Below, piece after piece: positions 1 through 62,054 of a DNA stretch of 64,000 bases (the first letter of the stretch is position 1; each line of letters opens with the position of its first letter). The DNA is from Tubiluchus corallicola (Eukaryota > Animalia > Priapulida), in assembly GCA_030141605.1 (NCBI GenBank), contig JAQGDQ010000167.1:335877-399876 (forward strand), read 5' to 3'. The position numbers and the translations under genes were made by a program. The notes beneath the pieces are model-generated. The model searched no databases and was not told the DNA's origin. It saw only the letters and a list, made by a program, of their open reading frames with translations.

Positions 1-48
1 AAGTGTTCTAGATTTTCGTGAAATTTACAGTCCTGTTACTGAAAGAAA

Positions 49-1011
49 ATGAACAACATTTCTGAAAAACAGCTGTCAAACTATACCGACTCTTTCAACT
101 ATGCAGCTGCATTTGTATTTTCCAACATTGGCATATCCATTCTCATTGCAGCCAGTAACGCTCTTGTGATGGCTGCACTTATCACCGAAAAGCAGTTTCA
201 CAAGGTGGCATACGCTTTCGTCGCAAACCTGGCAATTGCAGACTTCATGACAGGAATGTTTATGCTGTATAACACGCTGTCGATATTGGTACCAGAACTG
301 CTGAACTCAAAGTACGCTTGCCTGACAGTGTATATGGGATGTATCCTTTCTGGACACCTGTCAATTCTGAGCATTGTTTTGATTGCAGCCGATCTATACG
401 TGAAAATCGTCCATTCTCTCAAGTATCACGAAATCATGACAAGCAAACATGCAGGGCTCTTAATACTTGGTACGTGGGTGGTCTCGCTAACGACGACGTC
501 TTTGCCGTATTTGGGCTGGTCGAACGACTATCCGGGCATATATGCTTGCCTCTTTTTAACGGTTCTCCCACCCAGTTATCTCTTCTTTTGGTTTGTTGTC
601 AATTTTGTCATCCCAACATCCGCTTTTGTTTTCATGTACCTTCACATAACAAGCATAGCTCGTCACCATTCCAAGCAGATTGCCATCCAAGCCCAGGTAG
701 GTCACAGTGGTGGTGCAGGAGGTCCGACTCAAATGCAGCTTATAAATAGAGAACTGAAGATGATGATCACGACTATGATCGTACTACTTACGTTTATTGG
801 ATGTTGGTCGCCATTAGCCGTCGTCGTCTTAGTAGACATTTACTCTTTTCTCGTTCATCCTGAAACGGCAACCCACGCAGACATAATGGTGGTGGCTTTG
901 TTCGTCTACTGCAACTCGTTTTTCAACCCGATCATATATGGCATAAGAGATCGCAACTTTCGCAGGGCGTATCGTAAAGTTATCTGCTGCGAAAGACCTC
1001 AGCAATGGTAA
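49..1011 (+). CDS. Class A (rhodopsin-like) GPCR, GPR119/adenosine-receptor-like; single coding exon, 320 aa
   Basis: Seven hydrophobic segments with family motifs: TM1 SNxLV, TM2 NLAIAD, TM3 Cys plus D-L-Y, TM4 W and LPYLGW, TM5 P..Y followed by IARHHSKQI, TM6 CWSP, TM7 NSFFNPIIY, helix 8 NFR and CC. N-terminal N-glycosylation sequons. Acceptor-like tttacag ending at 30 suggests a 5'UTR exon upstream of the window. Confidence 0.93.
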   Translation: MNNISEKQLSNYTDSFNYAAAFVFSNIGISILIAASNALVMAALITEKQFHKVAYAFVANLAIADFMTGMFMLYNTLSILVPELLNSKYACLTVYMGCILSGHLSILSIVLIAADLYVKIVHSLKYHEIMTSKHAGLLILGTWVVSLTTTSLPYLGWSNDYPGIYACLFLTVLPPSYLFFWFVVNFVIPTSAFVFMYLHITSIARHHSKQIAIQAQVGHSGGAGGPTQMQLINRELKMMITTMIVLLTFIGCWSPLAVVVLVDIYSFLVHPETATHADIMVVALFVYCNSFFNPIIYGIRDRNFRRAYRKVICCERPQQW

Positions 1012-5712: not shown

Positions 5713-5936
5713 ACTGACGTGTAAATGAACCCTTCGGGTGTTTTTAAGTAAAGTTTGGCCAATTCTGTGACGACAATATCATTTTAGCATTCGTATTCCA
5801 GCGTCTCATAATTAAGTCATGAGCAATAACCAGTGTCTTTGTTTACCAAGTTATTATGACTTATATATCTATGTAATTTTTGTTTGTATCTCAGTGTGAG
5901 AAAGCTCAATAATTTATAAATTATTGTTTCTTTCAG

Positions 5937-8518
5937 ATATTTGTGCCTCAGATTTGGTGACTTCCACAGAGGACTGGAATGAGTCAGAAGTGCTGGACAA
6001 AGTTGAGGTGCTACGTGGTGTACTATCTAAACTCCCAAATGAGACACCAAAAGGGACAGCAAAAGTGCAGTTATCGCAGAACGAGTTGCAAAATGGCACA
6101 TTGAGTAGTATTACAGGGTCAAGTGGTGATTTAAAACAACCAAGTACAAATACTGCTCCTAGAAAATGCCTCAAGGCTAAGAGAACAAAAAATAAGACAA
6201 CGCCTGAGGCAGCTCACAAAGAAAGTAATAAAAGGATACTGTGTGATAAAGACGAATATTGTTTTGAAAATGGTGATATGGATACAAACTGTGATATAAG
6301 TAACAGGCTAGAGAGGGGCTGTGGTGATGTTAATGAATTAGTTGAACAAGTTGTTGAAAACTGTGACACTGATACATTTGGCGAAGAACATTCCAACGTT
6401 CCTGTGAGACATGTAGAAACTGGTGCAGGTGATAACTGCTTGAACAGCAGAAAAGCCAAATTACATTCAAATTTTCGTGAACCTCACAATCAGACCAGTG
6501 AACACAAATCACCTACAAAAAATTTTTCACCGGTGATGAGAGAACGGCAGGACCAAAGTCAACAAAAGCAAATTCGTCCATTATCCGTCAGTGAAATAGA
6601 GAATCCGAAGATCTGTGAAAAGTCTGAGGAAACGGTCACCTCCAAAATCCCAAAGGGCGAAGAAACAAGCTGCACCATTGTTGCTAACCCAATTTACTCT
6701 TCAGAGGTGGAAGATAGAAATAAGAAGAATATTAGCGAAGAAATTTGGAAGGACGAAATTCACGCCCAAAACCAGCTTAATCTCGATACAAAAGTGACCA
6801 AAATTATTTCTTCGCTAGATCTATTTTCTTGGGGCAAGAAAGCAAACCGCGAAGCCTTTTGTACATATGACGATACTTTGGAAGACTATAGAAAATTTGA
6901 GGTTAGTCTTCCAGGTGAAAAGAGAGACATGCTGCTGCATAAGTACAGTGTTCAACAAACTACTGCAGCAGACAATGAAAATTGGCAAAAATTTGACCAA
7001 TTTGATCAGTCCGTTCCTTCTGTGCAAATCAGCAAAAAGCAATTAAAATGCATTGATCTATATCTGCAGCAGAGTGCTTGTGACTTACACATGAGAATTG
7101 AGCAGACTTTGTCACAGATCAGAGCACTTCAATTAAAGAAGATGTTAGATAACTTGCTGCAAAACGAAGATGTGATTGATACTGAAGCAAGGATTAAGGA
7201 AAGTACAATTCTTTCTAACCTAGAAAACAACGAACAGACTACAATGAACAGGCTAGAATCTAATGTCAATGAGTGCTCAAAATTTAAGGATGAATCAAAC
7301 TCACAATGTTCATCCTCAGTAAAAGAGGACACTAAAAGCTCAACATGTGAACCCAAAAAACCACAGTCACTTGTGGATGAAAATGTCTGTAGTAGTTACC
7401 CGCGGTTTGATCTTCTACATGCTGATAATGATCAACCAAAGATTGCCACGAATACGCAAACTCCAGTGTTTGATTTTCCTGTCACTAACAGATCAATTGC
7501 TAATGTTGTAGCAGAATCAGACAGCATAAAAAGTGATACAAAGTTTCATTCTAATGATCCTTATGTTGTTCAACATTTAGCCGATATGGGAACAGATACG
7601 AAAAGGAAAGGAAATTATGTTTTTAGAAATAATCTCGATGAAGCGCACCTTTCGGCCAATACATTAGCAAACAATGATGCCGATATAGGTAACATACCTA
7701 GCAGAAAAGTCTTGTCACGATCCACGATACCTTTACTCAACTTTGCAAAGGAGATCAGTGAAAATCCCTTTATATCTAACAAAACTGAATTAACCTTCAG
7801 AGAACAAAAATTATTACATTCCAGTCAGCAAATAGAAGATTCTGATGAACTTTTTACCAGTTATAATTGTACTGAACAAACTTCTATTAAAAACATGACA
7901 GGCACGAAGGAATGCCTTCTAGGTTCCTCTTCGGATGATAGTGAATCAGATGCCACTTCCAGTGACAGTAGTTCGCTTCCAGATGTTTGCTACAGAAAGA
8001 ATCTGCGCAGACATTGCAGCGGGAAAGAACTGCCAGGTGATGAGCCAGGAGACTTTAATACAACTGACTGGTGTTCTGTTAACACCTGCACTAAACACAA
8101 AAATGGCAATTCAAATGGAAATAGTAAGAGATGCTTTGAAAAGAATAAAAAACATGCCAGTGTAGTTAGTAGTGACGAAAGTGATTCCGACAATGAGGAA
8201 TGCGAATTTAGGCCGAGCACCATCACACAGCGTGGCGCTAGCTTTTATAACAGTGAAAATCAAGCAACATCAAATAAATCGCAGGCCTATAATGGTCATT
8301 TTGACATGTACCCATATAATTACGCAGCTAACTTCTTGTGGCCACATGACATGCCATTTTATTATGGTTACTGGTATGATTATTGGCAAACATGTAGCAA
8401 CTATGCAGTCGAGCCTGTGCAGAATTATTGCACAAACTTTCAGCAGCATTATATACAATACATGAGCCAGTGCTGGGAAAAAATAAAAAAGTCTAGAAAT
8501 AGTGAAGAAAACAGCTGA
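5937..8518 (+). CDS. DDX20: Large terminal coding exon, probably DDX20/Gemin3 DEAD-box helicase (disordered C-terminal region)
   Basis: Acceptor ttgtttctttcag ends at 5936; exon starts in phase 1 (x|AT) and stays open for about 860 codons. Start (D)ICASDLVTSTEDWNESEV resembles the recalled start of the human DDX20 last exon (DPIPSGLMEECVDWDVEV). The end YYGYWYDYW...FQQHYIQYM resembles the recalled Tyr/Trp-rich DDX20 C-terminus. The helicase exons are not in the window. Confidence 0.68.
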
Positions 8519-10788: not shown

Positions 10789-13110
10789 TTACTTGAACAA
10801 CATTTGGAAAGCATCAGTATTTGGCCGGTCAGTTGGTGAAGATGATGACCCAAAGTTGAATGTGAAGCCACTGTTGTTATCACTAATTTTAGGAGAACAG
10901 CTATCGCCTGAGCCAAACATGTTGAATGGTTGTGCATTATCAGAGTTAGTGCTAGCGCCACCTATAGTAGAATTAAACGTGTTGGCGAAAAATGACGGCA
11001 CAGCAGCCTGGTTTGTATTGCTATCAGTTGTTTCTCCAAAGGAAAATGGCTGTTTAGTCTGTGAAAAGTTAAAGAAATTTGTCGACCTGTCAGCATCTCC
11101 ACTTCCTTTTTCCACAGTACCTGAACGGAAAAATGGTGCTGCTTTAAACGTGAATTCCGGCGACTGGTGCAGTTGCTGCATTTGACCACGAAAATCGTCA
11201 AAAGACGTTGGACTAACGGACATTTCTGTCACAGTAGGAGGCAAGTCTGCAGGGCTTGCTGAAATGACTGGTGATATGGAGAAGTTACTTTCCATAGATA
11301 TATTCATCTCACCAAGTTCCCCTTGCACTTGTGTAGAAGGAACAGATATGGCTTCTTGCATCATTGGAATGTCAACAGGCTTACTAGTGTTGCCCTGTGT
11401 TTTAGCTGCGGAAGCTAGGGGTGGTGTAGGTTCAGCGCTCTTAGATTGTGCAAGAGAGCAAATTGTCATTGGTTCAATCTTTTGCTGTTCTTGCAATTGC
11501 TGCTGTTGTTGTTTCTGCTGATGCACTTCTAGTTGGCGCTCTGCAATAGCATTTTCCACAATTTCCGTGTATGGATAACCGTCAGGTTGGAGTGGCGCAT
11601 TTATTATGTCAATTTCCTTCCGCTTCTCAAAATGAAATTCCGAAACGCGCGTTGTAGACTGAGTAGGAGGTGCAAATTTTACTGGGAGGAAGGTTGGTAC
11701 AGAGAAAGGGTGAGATCCTCTAGTAAAGTGTCGGGATGTTACAACGGTAGAAGTTGTGGCAGGTGTTGAATTAGGGGGTCTTGCAGTGAAAGATTTCGCA
11801 CTGGTAGGAGATTGAAGTGGTGCAGAAGCAGTGGTATCCGTTGAGCTATCTGAAACGTTCATACTTTTACGGGACGAACTAACTGGTGTTGAGCTTGTGC
11901 CATTAAAAGAATTACCTGAAGGTTGCATTGTAAAGCCTGTGGTGCTGTTAGAAGAACGAAATGGTATTGACAACGTTGGAATGCTTCGCACATGTTGTGT
12001 TTTCACAAATGTTTTCTGCATTTTAATAGGAGTACCGGCACTGACAGCAGACATGGCTGCAGGGCGATTCTTACACAGGGATGACTGCTCTTGTGTACAG
12101 TTTTCTGTTTGTTCTGCTGCTTCAGGAGCAATAGTGGCAACATCTAGCAATGCCTCATTTTGAAAATGCTGAGGCTCAGTTGTGTTATCTTTAGCAGGCG
12201 GTATTGGAAATTGCTGTGGGATAGTGGCAACTGGGGACTGTGAAGATGGTGGATGTATTACAGTTTGCATTAAATTGGGATTATTCGAAACATCAATGCT
12301 AGGCTGGGTGGGTTCCAGCTGGGTGCCCATAATTTGTCCTGATTCAGCTAATTTCTCAGTGTTTCTTGTTATCTTGTCATTCTCTTGATCTAGCATTAAT
12401 TGTCTTTCGACTTTCAACTGCTTAGTTTCTTTTATTTTGAGGAAAAGTTCGTCAGATTTTTTCTGAAGCTGTTCAGTTTCTACATCAGCCTGCATAGAAG
12501 CAAAACGGAAGTTTGCAAGTTTTAGAATAAAGTCAGTCATCCCTATAAATGGCAGTCCATTTCCTTTTCCCAAGACTCTACGTAATACAGCAAGTCTGAA
12601 CTTGTTATCTTCCACAGCTTGTTTAAGTTCCCTTACTTGTTTTTGCTTTTCTCTTAGCTTTATTGTTAAGGGAAAAGATTCATACTTTTGCTCATACTTT
12701 TTCCAAATACCATCATAGTGATCGACTATCTTCTGCCTCTCAAGTGCTTCATTTTCCATGACTGCTTCCATACTTTCCCTTTTCTTGACAATCATGTTTA
12801 CATGTTCTTTCAGCAGCTCTATATTCTTTTTCAGACTTTCACGCATTTCCATATTGTTAGCAAACTGTTTGTATGCTATCTGTGTAGCGTCATCTAGCCT
12901 GGCAATATCAGCTTGTAGCTCTTTTATTTGTCTCTGCTTCTTATCAGCTTCTGCCTCAAGCGCTGCTGTAGCTTGCTGTTCTTCCTCAATGTTTTTTATG
13001 TGTTGTTCTTTTTCAAATTCTAAAGCCTTGACAATTTTGTCCAAAGCTGGGCTGTCGATGCTGTTCAGCATAGAAGAAAATTCGAACGTTGTCTTTGAAG
13101 TAGATTCCAT
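10789..13110 (-). CDS. SIX6OS1: SIX6OS1/C14orf39-like synaptonemal-complex central-element protein; intronless CDS, 773 aa from the ATG at 13110
   Basis: N-terminal coiled coil of about 250 aa with segments matching recalled human SIX6OS1 (YDGIWKKYEQKYESFPL vs YKEVLKQYQLKYSETPF; PFIGMTDFILKLANFR vs PFPSLTKWTLNIVNLR). Disordered S/T/P-rich middle; Phe-rich C-terminus (PFSFG, GFTFNFG, FQMLFK). Acceptor cttaccacag shortly upstream of the ATG. Confidence 0.68.
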   Translation of the reverse strand: MESTSKTTFEFSSMLNSIDSPALDKIVKALEFEKEQHIKNIEEEQQATAALEAEADKKQRQIKELQADIARLDDATQIAYKQFANNMEMRESLKKNIELLKEHVNMIVKKRESMEAVMENEALERQKIVDHYDGIWKKYEQKYESFPLTIKLREKQKQVRELKQAVEDNKFRLAVLRRVLGKGNGLPFIGMTDFILKLANFRFASMQADVETEQLQKKSDELFLKIKETKQLKVERQLMLDQENDKITRNTEKLAESGQIMGTQLEPTQPSIDVSNNPNLMQTVIHPPSSQSPVATIPQQFPIPPAKDNTTEPQHFQNEALLDVATIAPEAAEQTENCTQEQSSLCKNRPAAMSAVSAGTPIKMQKTFVKTQHVRSIPTLSIPFRSSNSTTGFTMQPSGNSFNGTSSTPVSSSRKSMNVSDSSTDTTASAPLQSPTSAKSFTARPPNSTPATTSTVVTSRHFTRGSHPFSVPTFLPVKFAPPTQSTTRVSEFHFEKRKEIDIINAPLQPDGYPYTEIVENAIAERQLEVHQQKQQQQQLQEQQKIEPMTICSLAQSKSAEPTPPLASAAKTQGNTSKPVDIPMMQEAISVPSTQVQGELGEMNISMESNFSISPVISASPADLPPTVTEMSVSPTSFDDFRGQMQQLHQSPEFTFKAAPFFRSGTVEKGSGDADRSTNFFNFSQTKQPFSFGETTDSNTNQAAVPSFFANTFNSTIGGASTNSDNAQPFNMFGSGDSCSPKISDNNSGFTFNFGSSSSPTDRPNTDAFQMLFK

Positions 13111-13859
13111 TCTTGAAAAACTCAAATCTAGCTGTGGTAAGTGTGACAGCTTAAAAGAAGGTCAAAGTACCAACATGGTCAAAAAATAAAGAATTTCAGC
13201 CAACCAATGTTACTGAAATAGAAAATGTCATAAACCATTATTCTAAATCACAGTTGTTGTCTTGACTGATAAGAAAAAGGAAACAATTCATCCTGCTAGT
13301 ATATTATTATTAATTAATAAGTTCTTCATTTTAGCAAGTCACTTAAATTAATCGTATCCGATGGGTGGTAGCTTACATTGTCAGTTTATATTTAACAGCA
13401 GCAGGGCGAAATTATTAAAAATAAAAACTTGAACAATGAGCACAAAATTTAATGATTAACTTAGTTTCATAACAATACAAAAACACACTAATCATTAATC
13501 GCTGACCTTTGATCACATTGTACAATTGAATGTCATACTTGCTTGCAGCAAAGTCTAAGAGACCTAACCACAACAGGGTTATTGCCGGTCTCTCCTCAAC
13601 AATTTGCGAAATTGCGGTAGATTGATGAGTCAACTGTTTCACTATTAAGTGAATTCCAAGGGCCCATAACATGAGAAGAGAAGAAATGAGCTCTGATGTT
13701 ACTACCTACTGCACAAATAATTTAGAATTGTGTCCAGGTAAGTCACGTAGTGGTCTAGAAAAAATTTATCACTACGCAAAATAGAACTACTACTAATGTA
13801 ATGACTTTATAACAGTTAATAAGATCTATAGTATCACGGCGTTGTTCAAGAGAAGATAC

Positions 13860-23319: not shown

Positions 23320-23489
23320 TTATAAAGTAGATATGCGCACTATATTTGGTTGTCCTGGCGAAGCAGTGCTGCAGGTAGATGGGGTACGCAACGAGTCATC
23401 TCCCTCGGATGCGGGTGTTGGTAAGGTAATGACGGCTGTAACAGTGGTTGCTTGCATGTTGTTAACTGTACTATTACTGTTGTTACTGC
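23320..23489 (-). CDS. KCND: Kv4/Shal channel, last coding exon (GSNNSNS...VTAVITLPTPASEGDD...NIVRISTL*)
   Basis: Acceptor tacttgacag, phase 1. Matches the recalled vertebrate Kv4 tail (VTTAIISIPTP..EGDD..NIVRVSAL); ends in a class I PDZ-binding motif S-T-L. Confidence 0.92.
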
Positions 23490-24161
23490 CTGTCAAGTAC
23501 AAAAATGTTATCATTTTATATTTATCTAAATATAGTATAGGTTACAATAAAAATCACCTAAAAGTTCCTTAAACATTGCAAACTACGCAGAATTTGATGC
23601 TGATTTTGCTTCCAAAGTACGAATAGCTTTCTTACTTTGAAATAGCTGTGCTGTTAAGCGCTTAGCATAAATGAGTCATCAGGAGCGTATCAAGACTTAT
23701 CGACGCCCTAAGTTGATAGCTCTGTCTCGCCCATCTTATTGTAAATTTATGATCGTTTACGTAATGGGCAGATTAAACAATTACTGGGTGGTGTATTAGA
23801 AACACTATTAACCTAGTTTCAACATGGTCATTATTAATTACATGTATTTGCATAGCGCTTATATTCAAGCTGGCTGCGCATGTGCTTGTAATACTTTGCA
23901 TCTAATCGCTATGTGGTACTTATATGAAAGTTGCGCTTAGTAACTGCCTGTGGTGGATTGCAAAATGCGCTCTTTATATGATTATGAAAGTATACTTAGT
24001 TTCCGAGGAGAATAAGATTTTTTTTCTAAAACGTGATGCCCCTAAAACTTTGGCGCCCTAGCCTATAGCCTAGTTAGCCTATTGGTTCATATGCCCCTGT
24101 GAGTCATTATAATGTTGGGTTGTCCCGTTTACTTCATAAAATAGTACATAATTTAACAAAC

Positions 24162-24285
24162 CTAGTTGTGCAGGCTTTGATGATATAGGGATTGCGTTAA
24201 GGCTTGAGCGCGATGAATGATGTGGATTTGATGTTAACGGTGTCTGGACATCGTTGTCAGATGCTGGTGTCGAATCACGTTCGCT
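24162..24285 (-). CDS. KCND: Kv4/Shal exon, 124 nt (SERDSTP...HSSRSSLNAIP...QL)
   Basis: Acceptor cattttcag, donor G|gtttgt; phases 0/1 fit both neighbours; contains the Kv4 SRSSLNA motif. Not in the ORF track. Confidence 0.88.
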
Positions 24286-24837
24286 CTGAAAATGATCAGT
24301 ACCAGTAATCTAAATGTTTGAAGGTTTCCAGAATTTACAACATTGTTTTGTGTATCAAAAATTTTGTACATAATCTTCTATGTCAAAAAAGTACTACCAG
24401 CCGTCACATTTTCATTTTAAATGGTTCAGTAACTATAGTTATTGATTTTATGAAGGTTTTGTCACATTCATTAAAAAAAATCATGCTCGTGGTAAGAGGA
24501 ATAGACGCAGTTTTGACTGTTTGTGGTGTGCAAGGGTAGAAACCGATTTGCCTACTTTGTTACGTATTAGTCAGACACTAAATTCTAGTACTTAGCCAAA
24601 CATAAAATTTATTGAACCACCAATATATAAATGTATAAAAATGTAACAACAATAGAAAAAAGATAACACAAGGAAAAAGACATTAAATCATCAAAGAGAC
24701 ACAGAGAAATCCCCTTACACATTAATCATATATTAGCTTAATTGACGTTTTAGACCTTATTCACTTTGTGCTGACCTTACATTAACTCAATGCCAGAAAC
24801 ATCTTTGGAGATATTATTGTAAGTTCGATGGACTTAC

Positions 24838-25008
24838 ATGGTATTTTTTACCCGTTGAAGGAGGCGCGTGCCCTCGATAAATATCTACTTGTAGATCTGG
24901 ACTGCCTAATGATGGAGTGTGAGCTCCTGACCGTAGCTTGTGATCCGTTGCACCGGTAAATGGACCTATATGTACATCTTCGTCAGTATAAGCTGCGAAT
25001 GTACGATT
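24838..25008 (-). CDS. KCND: Kv4/Shal exon, 171 nt (NRTFAAYTDED...GKKYH)
   Basis: Acceptor ttttgttacag, donor CAT|gtaagt, phase 0/0; positionally equivalent to the NHEF/DREF segment after LEKTT. Confidence 0.82.
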
Positions 25009-25665
25009 CTGTAACAAAATGAAAATTAAACTAATAATCAAGCTATCAATCATAATTGATTGCATAAATTAAATAAGACCCGTGATAACAATAAGTATCA
25101 CAATGTAAATGCGCACTGGCTTCTCATTCAATTTACATTACCCTCTCTTTTAATATTTTGCTTTGCATAATTTGCATAAAAGATTCTTTTTAATTAATAA
25201 ATTAAACAATGAGTAGACTTAAAACTTTTGTAATCCATTAAAATTTAAGAATACGTGACAAATTTTTAATTTTGATACCTTAAAATTATAACTTATACTT
25301 ATTACATACACATGTTTTTTCACTATAAAAATTTTACACTTGCAGTAACCAATAACAGAATTGATTGTGGACATATAAGTGCAGCTTTAACATAGATGTT
25401 CATTATCTCATGAAATGTGTCAGTGTATGATTGGGCTCCGGATCAATTGCTCTAGAGAAATTCACTTACTTTGCTCAGTCAACATATCAAACGGTTCTGT
25501 GCAATTGATACAAAACATATAGGGTTGTGTCATTCCTAAATTGCACAATTGTCTGCCATCACGCACAAGTATAATAAAAGGATTTTACACCCAAGTCACT
25601 TATAGCGGCTTAGTTATACTGTTGGGAGCTGAACATCTTAATTAAACCACTGACTGACATTTTAC

Positions 25666-26814
25666 CAGGGCCGTCGAGAGCCTATGCGGACCCCGCGGCA
25701 GCAAGCATTAAAGCACAAGAAAAGGGGTACCTGAAGCAGGTTTTAGAAAAATCGTTTAAAAAATTATATTGCTTTATAGCAATTTTAGGTGTACATTGTA
25801 CTCGCGTTCAAAGGATTTTTTGTTCGTTTTCATTTTAAATGGCCTTAGTTTTACACTTTAGTTTTTTTTAGTCTGCACTGGACGCATTTGTCTTGAACAG
25901 TGTTGTTTTTAACATTACGCTGAGGATTACTAAATTTTATTATAATGAGTGAGCCATTTTAATGACAAATAAAGAATTTATATATATATATATATATATA
26001 TAAATGTTCTGCAATACTATTCCGACGGCGCCATTACATGACATTATATACGCACAATGTAAATCAAGGGAAGAAAAGAAAATGTTAAACTATGTTCCAA
26101 AACACTTTCCATGCAAAGTTATATTACTTAGCATTTCGCTTACCTGCTCGAAAGACTTATGTAACTAGAAAAGGAAATTATTAATTAATTAAAATGTTTA
26201 CACCAATTGGTAAAGTGTCATTGAGTCACCTCCAAGGTGCACCACTCAATAACCAAAAAAAAGTATTTTTAATCTTATTGACAAGATACAGTAATTTATA
26301 AAATTTTACTTACATAGTGACGTGTTCGTTGTGAATGCTCTTTTTTTTGAAACTTTACTCAGTGTCATCTACACTTGTTTCAAATGACTTATCGTCAAAA
26401 TGGCTGCGTGTAACGGCCATCGCGGGAGTTTAAATTTACATGTTTTATACAGTGCTACCTCCGACGCAAGCGTTGTATGCAAAAAGCCAGTACGTAAGTG
26501 GAAGGTTTACTTGTGCTTTAAGGCCCCACTTCAAGTGGCATAGAAGGGGATGACTTGCTCTCAATTTCGTCAACGTTTGTGAACAATTTCGCCAACCCCC
26601 CATTATTTGTAATGCCTCTACCAATCAAAAAGGTACTGCTGACGATTGAAATGACAAGAAGAAATGGCTAATCCAGTAGACAACTTTATGAAGAAAAAAA
26701 CTTTAGCAGCTCTAGCTATATAAAACTCTGGTTGCGTCTTTAATCTTCTCGAGTCTCCCTAGACACCCGGGCCCCGGGGCACTGACCCCCGTGGTCCCTC
26801 TCTCATCGGACCTG
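25666..26814. mobile_element. hAT-like non-autonomous element
   Basis: Imperfect TIRs CAGGGCCGTCGAGAG / CTCTCATCGGACCTG with GC-rich subterminal GGCCC motifs; no clean 8-bp TSD. Confidence 0.55.
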
Positions 26815-30356: not shown

Positions 30357-30539
30357 AGTAGCTTTTTCCAGACAATGTAGAAGGTGGTGATGTTGCAGTT
30401 CGAAACTGTCTTCAGTGTGGTCATCCACTTCTATTCCTGTCTCTTGTGCTAGCAGCCGTCGTTCTATTGCCTTCTTTCTGGCTACAAATGCAGCACCTTT
30501 TTGATTCTTAGCTATGCGAATTCGAGCTTGTCGAGCAAT
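30357..30539 (-). CDS. KCND: Kv4/Shal exon, 183 nt (IARQARIRIAK...FELQHHHLLHCLEKAT)
   Basis: Kv4-diagnostic ARIRIAK and QHHHLLHCLEK motifs; acceptor ttgttaaacag, donor ACT|gtaagt, phase 0/0. Confidence 0.96.
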
Positions 30540-30845
30540 CTGTTTAACAAACAAATGATATCAAGTGATATTCTGTGTAACAAACAAATGATATCAAGTG
30601 ATATTCTGTTTAACAAATAAATGGGTGATATTCTGTTTACCAAATAAATGGGTGATATTCTGTTTAACAAATGAATGGGTGATATTCTGTTTACCAAATA
30701 AATGGGTGATATTCTGTTTAACAAATGAATGGGTGATATTCTGTTTACCAAATAAATGGGTGATATTCTGTTTAACAAATGAATGGGTGATATTCTGTTT
30801 AACAAATAAATGGGTGATATTCTGTTGTGTAACAAATAAATGATG
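30540..30845 (-). repeat. Minisatellite built from duplicated 3' splice sites: two 33-nt units, eight 27-nt units and a partial unit
   Basis: Minus-strand units such as aatatcacccatttatttgttaaacag; CAG ends at 30540, 30573, 30606, 30633, 30660, 30687, 30714, 30741, 30768, 30795 and 30822. Confidence 0.95.
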
Positions 30846-32986
30846 ACAATCGATATATAAATGATTTTGCTAACTACAAAAAAATTATTCTTGACTGCAG
30901 GAAAACCAAATTGAAAGGAGAAACTTGTGTGTATGTTTTTAAAAACTAGTATTTTAGGAAGCAGTTATCACTTAATTGTTAACAAATCGTTGTAGTGTGA
31001 TTTGCTACACAGCAGTCTAAATACGTGTACACAAAACAAAACAACCAACAAATTCTCACTAGCAAATGAGATGTGAAGGACCAAACAAACAGACGGACAA
31101 CAAATGCAAATAAACACAAATAAATGAGCCAGCTAGCAAGGAAAATAAAGCAACTAAAAGTCTAGCAGAATATTCAAAATTAGCTATGCACAGTTTCGCC
31201 AGTGAGGGCAAATAAGGTCCAATAAATTGTGTCATGGGCTTCACTGCATTAAATAGTTTGATGTGTCTAATTAAATAATAATAACGTGGTGTCTATCTTG
31301 GAAAATAAGCGTGTTAAGTTAAAATATCACATGGAAAGTAAAATTTCAAATCTCTTCTGATAAAACTTTAATACCAACTCATATACGCAACTGAAAATGG
31401 CAGCCCGCATTATAAACACAAATCTACATTTATTTGATGTATTATTGTTTTAGTGCACCTTGTTACGTGCAGTTTACAACTTGAAGTAATTAGAATATGA
31501 CATATATGGCGGGTTATTACGATACACTGTTGAATTCATTATAGCCCTTGTGAAAATGCAAAATTGCAGTACATTGTCTCGGCATTTTATTGTTATGCTG
31601 TTATCTCTGTTAATAAAAGTAAAAACAGCACTAAAAGTCTAATCTAAAAAAAATCTAAAAATACGTGTAGCACAATAGCCACTTTGATGTTGCACTCACA
31701 TAATTATATCACAAATAATAATTAAGTGGCAATTTATAAAAATTTTATGTAGGCCTACTTCAGAATGCATATTTCTGTAACGGTCCTAGAATGTCATTAA
31801 ATACTTTCTTCTTGCAATAGTTCAGTAATTTACAAAGAAATTCAGGCTTTTCCAGAAATTAAATTTGTTAATTCTGCAAAGCGGACAAACAGACAGACAA
31901 ACAAAATTAACTTTTATTTAATTTTACTTTAAGTTTAATTTTAATGGCATCTTTCGAGCAGCAAAAACAGAAATTACCTAAAAACATATCCTTGGCGACA
32001 GTTCTAGACTGTGGCCATACAGTGGTCAATGTTAATAACCTAGCAGCACAGGCAAGAAAATAAACGAAATCACGCTAATTTATCTTGCACCACAGTGATT
32101 GTATCCTTTTATCAAAAAATTTTCTATTAGAGTCAGCTATATACAAACACATAGTATCTTGTGCATACAAGTTATGAAATACTTTACAGCAGACGAGAAA
32201 AGTAAAAAAAAATACGAATGCAAAATAAACTTTAATGCACAACCAGTAGCTCCATGACATGTGAACAGACTTTTGTATAAAATCAGCAAACCTACAGCAT
32301 TCACCTTTACAGACAGAAGGGCCAGATTAGAATCGTCAAATTACGGCATGCATTCTGTTTTATACAGGTACATTTGCATTACTGGGCTTCTCAACCATAC
32401 CCATTACTAACATTAGGGGGTTGGTCATAATCTGCCTTTGTAACAATATTGATGAAGTATTTATGAATTATATAGAATTTTATGTGTGTGATATTTTTAT
32501 TGTATATATGTTTTAATATGGGTTCTTGTACCTTATCTTATCTTACATTAAAGAATTATAAAATTCAAATGTAAGTATAAATGCCAAGAATGGGTGCAGT
32601 AAATGAAAAAAAACGACAATTAGGGGAAAAGAGAAAAAAGACATGAAGTTTCAAAGCACCACCGTTTTTTAATATCAGGTGAAGGATTAATTAAGCAAGG
32701 GGAAAACTCGAAATTACTCATTTTAATACTAATTTTTATATGGGCCTATTAGTAGGTGGGGGTAACACAGAAATAACTATCACGCTTAAAAAAGATACAT
32801 TGACAGATAGACAGTGAAAACGGCTATAAGAGCAAAAACACGAAGCTTATAATCCCTAGCCGTAATCATAATTATCTTAGAGAGAGACGAAGTGGACAGT
32901 ATGGTCTGCAACCTGATGACTGTCACTTTTTTCACGGGCGACACGCAACTGTCAAGGCCCACCATTCAGCCATGTTTTGCACCTAC

Positions 32987-33149
32987 CTTTTGAGCTTTGC
33001 GTTTATCGGCACGCTGGTTTTGATGGTAAATCCGGGAAAAGTTTGAGACGATCACAGGCACGGGTAGAGCGATCACAAGCACTCCGCTGAGAGAACACAC
33101 CCCACCAACAATTTTACCCATTATAGTTCCTGGTACCATATCACCATAC
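32987..33149 (-). CDS. KCND: Kv4/Shal pore/S6 exon, 163 nt ((G)[54 protein letters not shown])
   Basis: GYG selectivity filter split by the intron, S6 PVPVIV gate and Kv4-specific [13 protein letters not shown]; acceptor ttgcttacag, donor AAG|gtaggt. Not in the ORF track. Confidence 0.98.
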
Positions 33150-34789: not shown

Positions 34790-35462
34790 TATTATATTAT
34801 GTTACGTTATGTTATGTTATGTTATGTTATGTTATGTTATGTTATGTTATGTTATGTTATGTTATGTTATGTTATGTTATGTTATGTTATGTTATGTTAT
34901 GTTATGTTATGTTATGTTATGTTATGTTATGTTATGTTATGTTATGTTATGTTATGTTATGTTATGTTATGTTATGTTATGTTATGTTATGTTATGTTAT
35001 GTTATGTTATGTTATGTTATGTTATGTCATGTTACGTTACGTTATGTTGTTATGTTATGTTTGTACTATAGTATATCATATTATATTGTATTGTATTGTA
35101 TTGTATTGTATTGTATTGTATTGTATTGTATTGTATTGTATTGTATTGTATTGTATTGAATTGTATTGTATTGTATTGTATTGTATTGTATTGTATTGTA
35201 TTGTATTGTATTGTATTGTATTGTATTGCATTGCATTGCATTGCATGGCATGGCATGGCATGGCATGACATGACATGACATGACATGACATGACATGACA
35301 TGACATGACATGACATCACATCACATCACATCACATCACATTACATTACATTGCTTTACATTACATTACATTACATTACATTACATTACATTACATTACA
35401 TTACATTATATTATATTATATTATATTATTATATTGTATTGTATTGTATTATATTATATTAT
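34790..35462. repeat. Compound pentanucleotide microsatellite
   Basis: Blocks in order: (ATGTT)n, (ATTGT)n, ATTGC x4, ATGGC x4, ATGAC x10, ATCAC x5, (ATTAC)n, (ATTAT)n, ATTGT x3, ATTAT. Confidence 0.97.
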
Positions 35463-36977
35463 CACGTCATATCTAAACAAAAGTACTAAATACATACACT
35501 ACAAGAACTGTCTGTTCTTGCTACTCATGCCAGTGTGCATTGTACCCGGCATCAGAGTGAATTCGAAATGATCTTTGACTAGGAAAACACTATGCCTCAC
35601 TTTATACCAGGAGCAGGATAATACTAACTGTAAATGTTTTAATTTCTCATTTCACAGACATAAATAAGAGTTAATATTTCCTATACTAGTAATTTCTTAG
35701 GTCATTTAGTGTCTTACTGAAATTACACTGAACAGAGTTGAACTCTTATTCAGACAGACAAACTGTCTGTAACTGGAAGGAAAGACTCTACTTCACAGTT
35801 CACACTGCCTTCATCCTTGTTCAGTGAAATATGCAGGTGATACATTTGTTTAGAGTGCAATGTCTTCCTATGATAATTTCAGAATCCGTGAAAATCATGT
35901 GTGGTAGTACTTGTTGCTGTCTGACTATTCTCACTTAAACTATAATTTTTCATCTCACTCAAGTACTTCTAATGCAATATTATATAAAATGTATCGTATA
36001 GAGTTTTCATTTGAGAAAATTTCGACGACTATTTTTCCTTACGTAATGATAACTTCTGTTTAAAATTCTGGTACTTCAGGGTGAACTGCATGGTCATAAA
36101 ATTATCATCATCATCTACATCATCATCATCGTCGTCGTCATCATCGTCATCATCATCCGCATGAAAATTATCATCATTACTATTAGGCTACTACTATGCA
36201 TGTGAACCGGGCGGTATTTATAATACATGTAATTAGAATTTAATTGCGCTAAAACTTTATTTTTCACAGCAATAAAGGAAGAGTGTACCCTTGCCATTCT
36301 GGGTCGCAAGGCCAAAGGTCAATGTCACAGAAGCAAATACTTGAAAAGACTTGCGTGACCCAAAGCTATGTCTCAGTGCGAGGCGATGCTTCGCCTTGTT
36401 CACTTTAAATCCACGTATGAGTGGAACGTGAGGGCTAAGGAAGCGGTAGTTAATTACACCAGACTGGAGATGCATAAATAATATAACATTCACTATACAT
36501 AATGGTAATTTGCAAAGACGGTATATTTTCCTTGTGTGTGCTTTTAATGGATGTAATTGTCGGATAAAGTTTGTGGGTCATGCAGTGTAGTCGGTAAACA
36601 ACGCTGCGTTTGTTGCTTCAAACTCGAAGGCGTTGAACGATTTAAGAGGTCCTTAATTGTTGGTTGATGGGAGAAATGTAGGCTTCGTAGATTTGTATAG
36701 GAGTCAGCGAAAATACATTCCAAAGTTTATTTTGAGTTGGGTCATTAGTTGTATGTTGTTGAGAGCGGGTCCAAACGTCTTTAGTAGGACGAGTGGGCCA
36801 ACATTCCACACCATTGACACCCATAACAAACTATTAAGTAAATACTGTCACAGATATGTCAAAAAAACGTCTAAGCAGCTATATTTTAGTAGATGTATAG
36901 CTACTTTACGCTTATATAGACCGTAAAAACAATTTTTATTGTAAAAGACAACGTTGCTTTAAAGATTAGTTATTCAA

Positions 36978-37153
<176 letters not shown>

Positions 37154-40164: not shown

Positions 40165-40579
40165 CAGAAAACAAACTGCTATAGATGGACGTTACGTTAG
40201 ATGGAATTTTTGTCTGAGACAAGACTTGCTTCACGTGTTTCGTCAAGATTGATCTTTACACACTTTACACTTATAACATTTCATATAATTCGTGCATAGT
40301 TATGAAAGTGTGCTATAGAAAAGCACAGACTAGACGGTTTAGTCTGTTGGTAACACGTCCACTTTCCGTCCGGGAGGTCGTGAGTTCGATACAGCGGTCG
40401 GGTTATACCAAGGACGTTAAAATTGGTACCTGCTGTTGCCCTGCCCGGCGCGTGTTGTTAAGGTAAAAGTGGAGTAATAGTAGTCACTGTTATGTAGTTG
40501 TAGTTTGTTATTTACTGTTGGCAATAATAGCTCTTCTGAGCTAATGTTAATTGCACCAAAAATCCGTCTTTAAATAAAG

Positions 40580-52225: not shown

Positions 52226-52650
52226 AAGGGCTGGATTACCCTATAGGTTAGTATAGACTGCAGCCTAGGGCACTGAAGTTTCAGGTCCTATACTTTGCAT
52301 TGCCAAATAATTCATAAAACTTAAAATGAAATTTCAACTTTAAAGAGGCGGCCAGGAAGTTTGAAAATCCCATTTTAAAGTGGCTCCTCATTTGAGATAA
52401 AGGGTCCCTGTTTGAGGTCTTTTATTTCAGACAAAAGGCCCTTGTTGGAGACCCTTTATTTGAAATAAAGGCCCCTCTTTGAAGCCCCTTTATTTGAAAA
52501 TTGGGCGCCCAGCTATGCAAATGTTGCTGAAGGTTATCACAAGTAAAAAAAATTCGAGACGAGTGCAAACAAATTAGAAAGTGGCTCCGTCTGACGGGCC
52601 CCATAACTTCATTAGCCTAGGGGCCCCCAAAAGGTCATAATCCAGTGTTG
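52226..52650. mobile_element. hAT MITE with a perfect 8-bp target-site duplication
   Basis: GGTCTACC at 52218-25 and 52651-58; TIR core CTGGATTA/TAATCCAG. Confidence 0.85.
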
Positions 52651-53782: not shown

Positions 53783-54487
53783 GAGTTCAAGCATAGGTTT
53801 AATTAGTGAGCATGCTGTACATGTGACAGGAGTTCAAGCATAGGTTTAATTAGTGAGCATGCTGTACATGTGACAGGAGTTTAAGCACAGGTTTAATTAG
53901 TGAGCATGATGTACAAGTGACAGGAGTTCAAGCATAGGTTTAATTAGTGAGCATGCTGTACATGTGACAGGAGTTCAAGCATAAGTTTAATTAGTGAGCA
54001 TGCTGTACATGTGACAGAAGCTCAAGCATAGGTTTAATTAGTGAGCATGCTGTACATGTGACAGGAGTTCAAGCATAGGTTTAATTAGTGAGCATGCTGT
54101 ACATGTGACAGGAGTTCAAGCATAGGTTTAATTAGTGAGCATGCTGCACATGTGACAGGAGTTCAAGCATAGGTTTAATTAGTGAGCATGCTGCACATGT
54201 GACAGGAGTTCAAGCATAGGTTTAATTAGTGAGCATGCTGTACATGTGACAGGAGTTCAAGCATAGGTTTAATTAGTGAGCATGCTGTACATGTGACAGA
54301 AGCTCAAGCATAGGTTTAATTAGTGAGCATGCTGTACATGTGACAGGAGTTCAAGCATAGGTTTAATTAGTGAGCATGCTGTACATGTGACAGGAGTTCA
54401 AGCATAGGTTTAATTAGTGAGCATGCTGTACATGTGACAGGAGTTCAAGCACAGGTTTAATTAGTGAGCATGCTGTACATGTGACAG
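53783..54487. repeat. 47-bp minisatellite, 15 near-identical copies
   Basis: Unit gagttcaagcataggtttaattagtgagcatgctgtacatgtgacag; 705 nt = 15 x 47; no spacers. Confidence 0.96.
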
Positions 54488-55096
54488 GTTGTAAAATCCT
54501 GATGACAGAGGGAGATTCTAGGAGGGCAACTTTTTTGCTGTCTCCGCGCCGCTTCTCTCGAGTAATTGGTTAGAACAGGGGGAGGGGCTGCTTCGCAATG
54601 AGAATTTCCAAGCTGAAATTTCAGGTCTGAAGTTTGCTGACGACTTTTGGTGATCATAGTAGGCGACTTTTGATGATTATAAGTCAGATTGGTGTGCAAA
54701 ATACCAAAATAGCTACGCCTGATCAGTTTAAGTAATTCAAAAGTTATTAGAAGTTAGACGTAAGGGAGTTGTCTCTAACAGATGTGATAATGCTCTAATA
54801 GAGGTTTACCTTGAAAAGCGATTCAAGATTACTTACTATTGAAGTTATATTTTTTAAGCTGCGGATCAAACTTAGTAAGTTCTAATATAGGTGTAGGTTC
54901 GTTTCTTGTTTGAACCATAAATCTAATCCCGTGTTCCTTGTCTGTTCAAAAACGAACCGGTTCAAAATTAGACATAATTGTTCTGTAGAATGGAACTAAT
55001 TATCTACAGTGTGTATGTAATAGCCTTTTATCGTTCTTTTGAAATAGAAAAAATTAATTTCTAAATTACCCGAAAAATTAGGCCATCTATAACAAC

Positions 55097-61655: not shown

Positions 61656-62054
61656 TTTTATTTAAACACGGCTTTTGGGTGCAATTAATATTACCTCAGT
61701 AGAGCTATTATTGCTAACAATAAATAACAAATTACAACTACATAACAGTGACTACTATTGCCCCACTTTTACCTCAATAACACGCGCCGGGCAGGGTAAC
61801 AGCAACTACCAATTTTAACGTCCTTGGTATAACTCGACCGCTGTATCGAACTCACGGCCTCCCGGACGGAAAGTGGACGTGTTACCACCAAACTAAACCG
61901 TCTGGTCTGTGCTTTTCTATAGCACACTTTCATAACTATACACGAATTATATGAAATGTTATAAGTGTAAAGATCAATCTTGACGAAACACGTGAAGCAA
62001 GTCTTGTCTCAGACAAAATTAATGTAACGTCCATCTATAGCAGTTTGTTTTCTG
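61581..62054 (-). mobile_element. tRNA-derived SINE with the same 5' extension, inverted copy
   Basis: Reverse complement aligns to 40165-40672, including about 150 nt upstream of the tRNA-like head; tail appears as (AAT)n on the + strand. Confidence 0.8.

What the first reader, a model, noticed from the sequence alone, without database searches (positions are those of the whole stretch)
30357..30845. Eleven tandem splice acceptors in front of a Kv4 exon; only the last one gives a full-length channel
Seen: the minisatellite abutting the IARQARIR exon is the exon's own 3' splice site repeated. All 11 minus-strand units end in ...ACAG, spaced 27 or 33 nt apart, so every one is in frame with the phase-0 pore exon. 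The 27-nt units translate openly (NITHLFVKQ, NITHSFVKQ, NITHLFGKQ, with two variants alternating mid-array). The two exon-proximal 33-nt units carry a c-to-ttgatat change that creates an in-frame TGA (N-I-T-stop) and also a YTRAY branch-point-like motif with its A 22 nt from the unit end. Inference: any acceptor other than 30540 yields a channel truncated just after S6, lacking the cytoplasmic tail and PDZ motif, or an NMD substrate. The array could act as a copy-number-tunable productive/poison splicing switch for A-type current. It may also be neutral slippage that the spliceosome ignores.
Basis: partly seen in the sequence, partly recalled or inferred. Interest (0 to 1): 0.85.

Follow-up and report, generated by a model that had tools for sequence, protein, structure and literature searches.

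The report
Repeated splice acceptor in Kv4 intron
The last 27-33 bases of an intron in an invertebrate potassium-channel gene have been copied head-to-tail, leaving eleven look-alike splice sites in an array that likely differs in length between the animal's two chromosomes; the one RNA seen uses the site next to the exon, so this is probably a harmless repeat of a kind already described, not a regulatory switch.

Summary
In detail: 11 in-frame AGs (30822 to 30540), eight 27-nt and two 33-nt units, and a TGA in the 33-nt units that would truncate any product of the 10 upstream AGs. The array is no assembly artefact. Contig depths in two DNA runs of one sample reproduce its units and fit two different alleles far better than two copies of the window allele, so it is a VNTR. 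One spliced RNA contig joins donor 32987 to acceptor 30540, but that animal is diverged and may lack the array, so use of the upstream AGs is untested. The 'poison' design is weak evidence: every YTRAY motif contains a stop triplet, 80% of 434 simulated intron-end duplications are poison anyway, and 0 of 17 distant Kv4 introns repeat their acceptor. Splice-site-reiterating minisatellites are in print (amphioxus 'mirages', human F7, CBS, ABCA7), mostly with the authentic site used. This scan found the same kind before on other DNA (109 notes, at least 22 genomes). Verdict: probably neutral slippage; a tunable switch is unsupported but not excluded.

The parts
32987..33149 (-). Kv4 pore/S6 exon (YGDMVP...RKAQK), ends at a phase-0 donor AAG|GTAGGT
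   Evidence: covered by spliced RNA contig of run X6 (tables 5 and 8)
30540..32986 (-). 2447-nt GT-AG intron
   Evidence: joint 30539/32987, ends CT..AC on + strand, 1 contig of X6
30822..30845 (-). diverged partial unit ending in the most upstream AG (30822)
30606..30821 (-). eight 27-nt units of three variants in the order A C G C G C G A; open reading, no YTRAY; the three G units hold a weak donor-like TTG|GTAAAC (30748, 30694, 30640)
30540..30605 (-). two 33-nt units, each with TTGAT (A at -22, in-frame TGA); the second ends at the authentic acceptor 30540
30357..30539 (-). 183-nt exon IARQARIR...CLEKAT, first exon of the cytoplasmic tail; donor ACT|GTAAGT
   Evidence: joint 30357/25008 in RNA contig
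24838..25008 (-). next tail exon (acceptor reads CAG|AATCGT, so AG|AAT is usable in this gene)
   Evidence: 5' end shown by RNA joint; 3' end predicted
24162..24309 (-). predicted tail exon
   Evidence: weak tblastn match E 0.071 and open frame; not shown in RNA
23320..23489 (-). predicted last coding exon ending ...NIVRISTL-stop
   Evidence: tblastn E 1.3e-4

Best explanation
This is a tandem array made of the last 27-33 bases of a Kv4 intron; it is likely length-polymorphic and probably neutral, and the spliceosome likely keeps using the exon-adjacent AG at 30540, the one site seen in RNA. Shown: the anatomy, the reality of the array in reads, and the 32987-to-30540 splice in one RNA run. 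Inferred: (1) it arose and still changes by slippage or unequal exchange, the terminal 33-nt units keeping the original branch-point motif while the inner 27-nt units, which lack it, turn over; (2) 30540 wins because it is the only AG followed directly by the real 183-nt exon and paired with its strong GTAAGT donor (exon definition), and is the first AG after a YTRAY at -22; (3) any rare slip, most plausibly to the near-identical 30573 site, would put a stop three junctions before the end and would be cleared by NMD, so it costs little and is tolerated rather than selected.
For: RNA contig joins 32987 to 30539. X2 contig depths fit 5A+5C+5G units over two alleles, relative RMS 0.039, against 0.353 for two copies of the window allele and 0.122 for the best homozygous model; with the window allele (8 units) the partner has 7 (0.045 vs 0.447 without the two inferred contigs). 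X1 also disfavours homozygosity (0.305 vs 0.142 and 0.080). Only the two 33-nt units of 11 have a YTRAY. Decoys are ordinary here: 23 of 95 non-array AGs in the same intron are YAG with at least as many pyrimidines as the real acceptor, 5 of them with a YTRAY. 0 of 17 distant homologous introns repeat the acceptor. 80% of 434 simulated intron-end duplications would be poison. Literature: amphioxus mirages show length instability and do not disturb splicing (PMC3087553, PMC3902484, passages); F7 uses only the exon-adjacent site whatever the repeat number (PMC1557585, passages); CBS c.844_845ins68 splices at the downstream copy of a duplicated acceptor (PMC7490669, passages).
Against: The RNA is one assembled contig from one run; contigs drop rare forms, and NMD would hide upstream use. 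That animal differs from the window (9 of 28 letters in one exon patch, about 3% elsewhere) and may not carry the array. 30573 has the same branch motif and tract as 30540. In human 6-16, CBS intron 13 and ABCA7 the nearest pseudo-sites are used to some degree. The homologous introns compared are all distant (55-70% exon identity), so lineage-level conservation is untested. X1 and X2 disagree on the second allele (9 vs 7 units).
Confidence: 0.74

Rival explanations
1. Unselected leak: a measurable minority of transcripts splice at 30573 or 30606, are destroyed by NMD, and the loss may scale with allele structure (an ABCA7-like splicing QTL), without being an evolved switch.
For: 30573 matches 30540 in branch motif and pyrimidine count and is only 33 nt away. 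AG|AAT is a used acceptor context in this gene at 25009. ABCA7's 25-bp VNTR gives one-unit retention with a premature stop and length-dependent isoform change (PMC5954066, passages).
Against: The only RNA contig at this junction uses 30540. Both inferred alleles keep two 33-nt units (depth 320, four copies), so the variable part is the branch-motif-free 27-nt block, furthest from the exon. F7 splicing is unchanged by repeat number.
Confidence: 0.18
2. Selected, copy-number-tunable poison switch that sets Kv4 (A-type current) level or makes a tail-less subunit.
For: All 11 AGs are in frame, all upstream ones lead to a stop, and the array appears polymorphic. The Kv4 C-terminus shapes inactivation (PMC3311039, passages), so a tail-less subunit would differ.
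Against: No upstream junction seen. In-frame spacing is not needed for a poison product. 52 of 140 in-frame simulated units contain a stop, as do 41 of 96 AG-ending 33-mers of this intron. 0 of 17 distant introns share the design.
Confidence: 0.04
3. The G-variant units supply weak internal donors (TTG|GTAAAC), letting part of the array act as a 19+27n-nt frameshifting cassette exon.
For: Three such GT sites at 30748, 30694, 30640, each downstream of array AGs.
Against: They match the donor consensus less well than GTAGGT and GTAAGT of the flanking exons; the RNA contig skips the whole array.
Confidence: 0.03
4. Assembly artefact.
For: No single contig spans the array.
Against: Two runs hold every unit junction at depths that scale with copy number, for example 413 against about 160 for a 74-mer present three times.
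Confidence: 0.01

Closest known systems
Amphioxus 'mirage' minisatellites (Adh3, BflGb6, BflGb9, TnC, PGBD5; PMC3087553, PMC3902484, passages read)
   Same: Tandem copies of a splice boundary, including acceptor-side ones (BflGb6); unit size within the Adh3 range of 10-72 bp; alleles differ in unit number; splicing reported as normal.
   Different: Mirage units span the boundary and carry an exon head. This unit stops at the AG and shares only the +1 A with the exon.
Human splice-site-reiterating VNTRs: F7 intron 7 (37 bp), 6-16, CBS intron 13, lamin B2, PDGF (PMC1557585, passages read; the last four known to me only through that paper)
   Same: Polymorphic minisatellite whose terminal unit holds the authentic splice site; the exon-adjacent site dominates.
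   Different: They reiterate donors; this reiterates an acceptor with its putative branch point.
CBS c.844_845ins68 (PMC7490669, passages read)
   Same: Duplication of an intron 3' end; the copy next to the remaining exon is used and the upstream copy is spliced out.
   Different: A single 68-bp duplication with 16 exon bases, not a multi-unit array.
ABCA7 intron 18 VNTR (PMC5954066, passages read)
   Same: Splice site in every unit; use of the next unit gives a premature stop or NMD; precedent for length-dependent splicing.
   Different: Donor side, 12 to about 427 units, effects measured; here 10 units and no effect measured.

Membership tests
Splice-site-reiterating minisatellite (VNTR) | Head-to-tail units of 10-100 bp that each repeat the splice-site sequence | tested here: met
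Splice-site-reiterating minisatellite (VNTR) | The terminal unit holds the authentic splice site | tested here: met
   RNA joint 32987/30539
Splice-site-reiterating minisatellite (VNTR) | Unit number varies between alleles | tested here: met
   Inferred from contig depths of one sample; no spanning reads
Splice-site-reiterating minisatellite (VNTR) | Authentic site dominates in an animal that carries the array | tested here: inconclusive
   One RNA contig from a diverged animal whose intron is unknown
Amphioxus-type mirage (strict) | Unit spans the exon-intron boundary and includes exon sequence | tested here: not met
   Unit head AATATCAC does not match exon head ATTGCTCG beyond +1
Regulated poison splicing (AS-NMD switch) | Alternative event gives a premature stop upstream of later junctions | tested here: met
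   Predicted only:
Regulated poison splicing (AS-NMD switch) | The unproductive isoform exists and rises when NMD is blocked | not testable with these tools
   Only contigs of one RNA run were available
Regulated poison splicing (AS-NMD switch) | The poison element is conserved across species | tested here: inconclusive
   0 of 17 distant introns share it, but no close relative was available
Recursive splicing (ratchet) sites | AG directly followed by GT (criterion recalled) | tested here: not met
   All upstream AGs are followed by AATATC

The most novel reading that the evidence does not exclude
A heritable splicing rheostat for neuronal excitability: array alleles of different length and unit order divert different fractions of Kv4 transcripts to upstream acceptors, giving NMD substrates or tail-less subunits, so that a minisatellite genotype sets A-type current.
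Probability: 0.05. Interest if true: 0.7.

Novelty: new member of a known kind. Interest (0 to 1): 0.2.

Why it matters
If neutral, it is one more natural case showing that the spliceosome picks the exon-adjacent site among many near-identical acceptors. Its modest value is as a clean test system: two 33-nt units with the same branch motif, eight units without it, no copied exon head, and two alleles in one animal, which separates branch-point strength from exon definition. If upstream use proved allele-dependent, it would be an acceptor-side, invertebrate counterpart of the ABCA7 VNTR acting on an ion channel.

Tried and rejected
No whole genome is held for this window, so a genome-wide count of acceptor arrays was not possible. 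No RNA holder was listed for the stretch; X6 came in by species label only. Run X4 (another sample) covers the exon to 30548 and resumes at 31030 with nothing laid on the array; cover is patchy and no contig joins across, so this says nothing on presence or absence. Run X5 has no depth over the exon or array. RNA folding of 30500-30860 is unremarkable (z -1.14, 13 of 100 shuffles as stable), so hairpin masking of the upstream AGs was rejected. Recursive splicing rejected (no AG|GT). A protein-coding role for the open 27-nt units rejected because the TGA lies between them and the exon. A search with the receptor-like ORF at the window start, meant to place the animal, found nothing at E 1e-20; the clade stays undetermined. 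Paper searches: 'minisatellite + multiple splice + acceptor + repeat unit' gave 0; searches listed no paper on a Kv4/Shal acceptor array (one search showed 12 of 316, 15 of 37). PMC2630376 passages were mostly reference list and were not used. No earlier scan note matched this exon by sequence.

Full report
Observation. On the minus strand the intron before the exon IARQARIR...CLEKAT (30539-30357) ends in a tandem array. It has eleven AGs, at 30822, 30795, 30768, 30741, 30714, 30687, 30660, 30633, 30606, 30573 and 30540, spaced 27 nt eight times and 33 nt twice, all preceded by AC and all in frame with the phase-0 donor at 32987. The eight 27-nt units are of three variants in the order A C G C G C G A. 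The two exon-proximal 33-nt units carry TTGAT, which is both an in-frame TGA and a YTRAY motif with its A at -22. Translation from each of the 10 upstream AGs stops at N-I-T-stop; only 30540 reads through. The 30822 unit is a diverged partial copy, so there are 10 full units.

The gene. The upstream exon matches Kv4.2/Kv4.3 best among solved structures (E 1.6e-26), and both exons align with Shal/Kv4 proteins of many invertebrates. Using 30540 adds no extra residue relative to those proteins. A five-exon model from the pore exon to 23320 is open to a single stop, gives a 223-residue tail and ends VRISTL; calling that ending a PDZ-binding motif is from recall. The last two exons are predicted, not shown in RNA. 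The N-terminal exon or exons were not found in the window. The animal's clade was not determined: the last exon matched a mollusc protein best among 11 tested, and two unchecked scan notes on this genome suggest a priapulid.

Is the array real? Yes. Two DNA runs of one sample (X1, X2) hold contigs for the unit junctions. In X2 single-copy contigs have depth 151-160 (188 on the exon side). The C-to-G contig has 413, G-to-A 236, A-to-C 259, G-to-C 162. Two contigs hidden from the table were solved from bin means as 320 (shared by the 33-nt units) and 392 (A unit; its position is one of several numerical solutions, chosen because the repeat graph predicts it). These fit 5A+5C+5G units over two alleles at about 80 per copy (relative RMS 0.039). 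Two copies of the window allele fit badly (0.353), and the best homozygous model gives 0.122. Without the two inferred contigs the figures are 0.045, 0.447 and 0.129. Fifteen units cannot be split evenly, so the sample is likely heterozygous; if the window allele (8 units) is one, the other is ACGACGA (7), though 6+9, 4+11 and 1+14 fit equally. The shallow run X1 also disfavours homozygosity (0.305) but prefers an 8+9 pair (0.080) to 8+7 (0.142). This is one sample, possibly the source of the window, and an inference from depth, not from spanning reads.

Which AG is used? In run X6 (RNA by the tool's guess, but spliced at two GT-AG introns) one contig of depth 76.7 joins 32987 to 30539, skipping 2447 nt and the whole array, and another joins 30357 to 25008. 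In the narrower lay 2 X6 contigs were laid, neither on the array. Limits: contigs drop rare forms; NMD would remove upstream products; and the X6 animal is diverged, with 9 of 28 letters different at 30408-30435 and about 3% elsewhere, so its intron may have no array. The RNA therefore fixes the authentic acceptor but does not test the upstream ones.

Is the 'poison' design more than chance? Little more. YTRAY always contains TAA or TGA, so branch motif and stop are one feature, in frame one time in three. A poison product does not need in-frame spacing, and a coding insert could not tolerate the stop, so 'in frame plus stop' favours neither adaptive story. Doubling the last 20-50 nt of 14 homologous introns (of 17; three near-duplicates dropped) gave 434 cases: 140 in frame, 52 of those with a stop, 80% poison by stop or frameshift. 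In the rest of this intron 41 of 96 AG-ending 33-mers have an in-frame stop, and 23 of 95 non-array AGs are YAG with at least as many pyrimidines as the real acceptor, 5 of them with a YTRAY (a crude score, no trained model was available). Folding shows no structure that would hide AGs.

Conservation. A metagenome scan returned 43 loci. I examined 36; seven were left out because the match did not begin at the exon start or was weak. Seventeen have an intron at this position and 19 do not (L016 was auto-labelled AG but is continuous coding). None of the 17 repeats its acceptor; the same test found 9 of the 10 upstream copies in the window. All are distant (55-70% identity in the exon), so this excludes deep conservation only.

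Mechanism. Most likely slippage or unequal exchange duplicated the intron's 3' end. The terminal 33-nt units kept the branch motif, and the inner 27-nt units without it have been expanding and rearranging. Only 2 of 11 AGs have a YTRAY in range. The first AG after the branch point is normally chosen (PMC12081236, passages). Between 30573 and 30540 the tie is probably broken by exon definition, since only 30540 is followed by the real exon; this step is inferred from general knowledge and from the CBS and F7 cases. Rare slips would carry a stop ahead of three later junctions and would be NMD substrates if NMD here is junction-dependent (untested).

What is known. [quoted passage not shown] Human F7 uses only the exon-adjacent donor with up to 12 units; 6-16 and CBS intron 13 also use the two nearest pseudo-sites; lamin B2 and PDGF use only the authentic one (PMC1557585, passages). 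CBS c.844_845ins68 duplicates 52 intron and 16 exon bases and splices at the downstream copy (PMC7490669, passages). The Kv4 array works like a mirage but is not a strict member, since it carries no exon head; it is a member of the wider class of splice-site-reiterating VNTRs. I was led to the mirage papers by earlier scan notes: 109 findings in at least 22 genomes hold my search words; these are unchecked AI notes and are not support.

Verdict. Real and accurately described; likely a heterozygous, neutral VNTR of a described kind. Neutral 0.74, unselected leak 0.18, selected switch 0.04, internal cassette 0.03, artefact 0.01. Interest 0.2.

Noticed in passing
window 33149, run X6 contig (tables 7 and 8): The RNA contig continues 5' of the pore/S6 exon into 29 letters that are not in the window (0 matches at up to 3 mismatches) and do not encode the expected TMTTLG end of the preceding Kv4 exon: possibly an alternative upstream exon beyond the window, or a mis-join.
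   Followed up: partly
window 30408-30435: The X6 transcript differs at 9 of 28 letters here (five mostly conservative residue changes) but only about 3% elsewhere; X5, under the same species label, shares next to none of the window's words. The label may cover diverged lineages.
   Followed up: partly
window 30537-30539: The exon starts with Ile (ATT) where all 36 examined homologous loci have Lys.
   Followed up: no
window 30895 (minus strand): A strong-looking out-of-frame decoy acceptor (pyrimidine-rich, CAG) lies 355 nt upstream of the real one, just outside the array.
   Followed up: partly
window 53783-54488 and 52390-52499: Other minisatellites (47 bp x 15; 34 bp x 3.2) and many long microsatellites (34792-35462, 36977-37153, 40580, 44735, 61580, 62077): the genome is repeat-prone.
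   Followed up: no
window 43-1011 (+): Intronless 322-codon frame that reads like a seven-transmembrane receptor (by eye); no hit at E 1e-20.
   Followed up: partly
window 5900-8518 (+) and 10789-13161 (-): Two long uninterrupted frames (872 and 790 codons), convergent, unidentified.
   Followed up: no
window about 23800-24100, 25700-26450, 32100-32350: High-copy dispersed repeats inside Kv4 introns (summed depth in the thousands).
   Followed up: no
window 40218-40466 (+) and 61769-62008 (-): Two near-identical copies of a dispersed element in opposite orientation, each near an ATT/TAA microsatellite.
   Followed up: no
L011, 35 to 12 nt before its acceptor: A 5-bp microsatellite occupies the polypyrimidine-tract position of this homologous Kv4 intron.
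   Followed up: no
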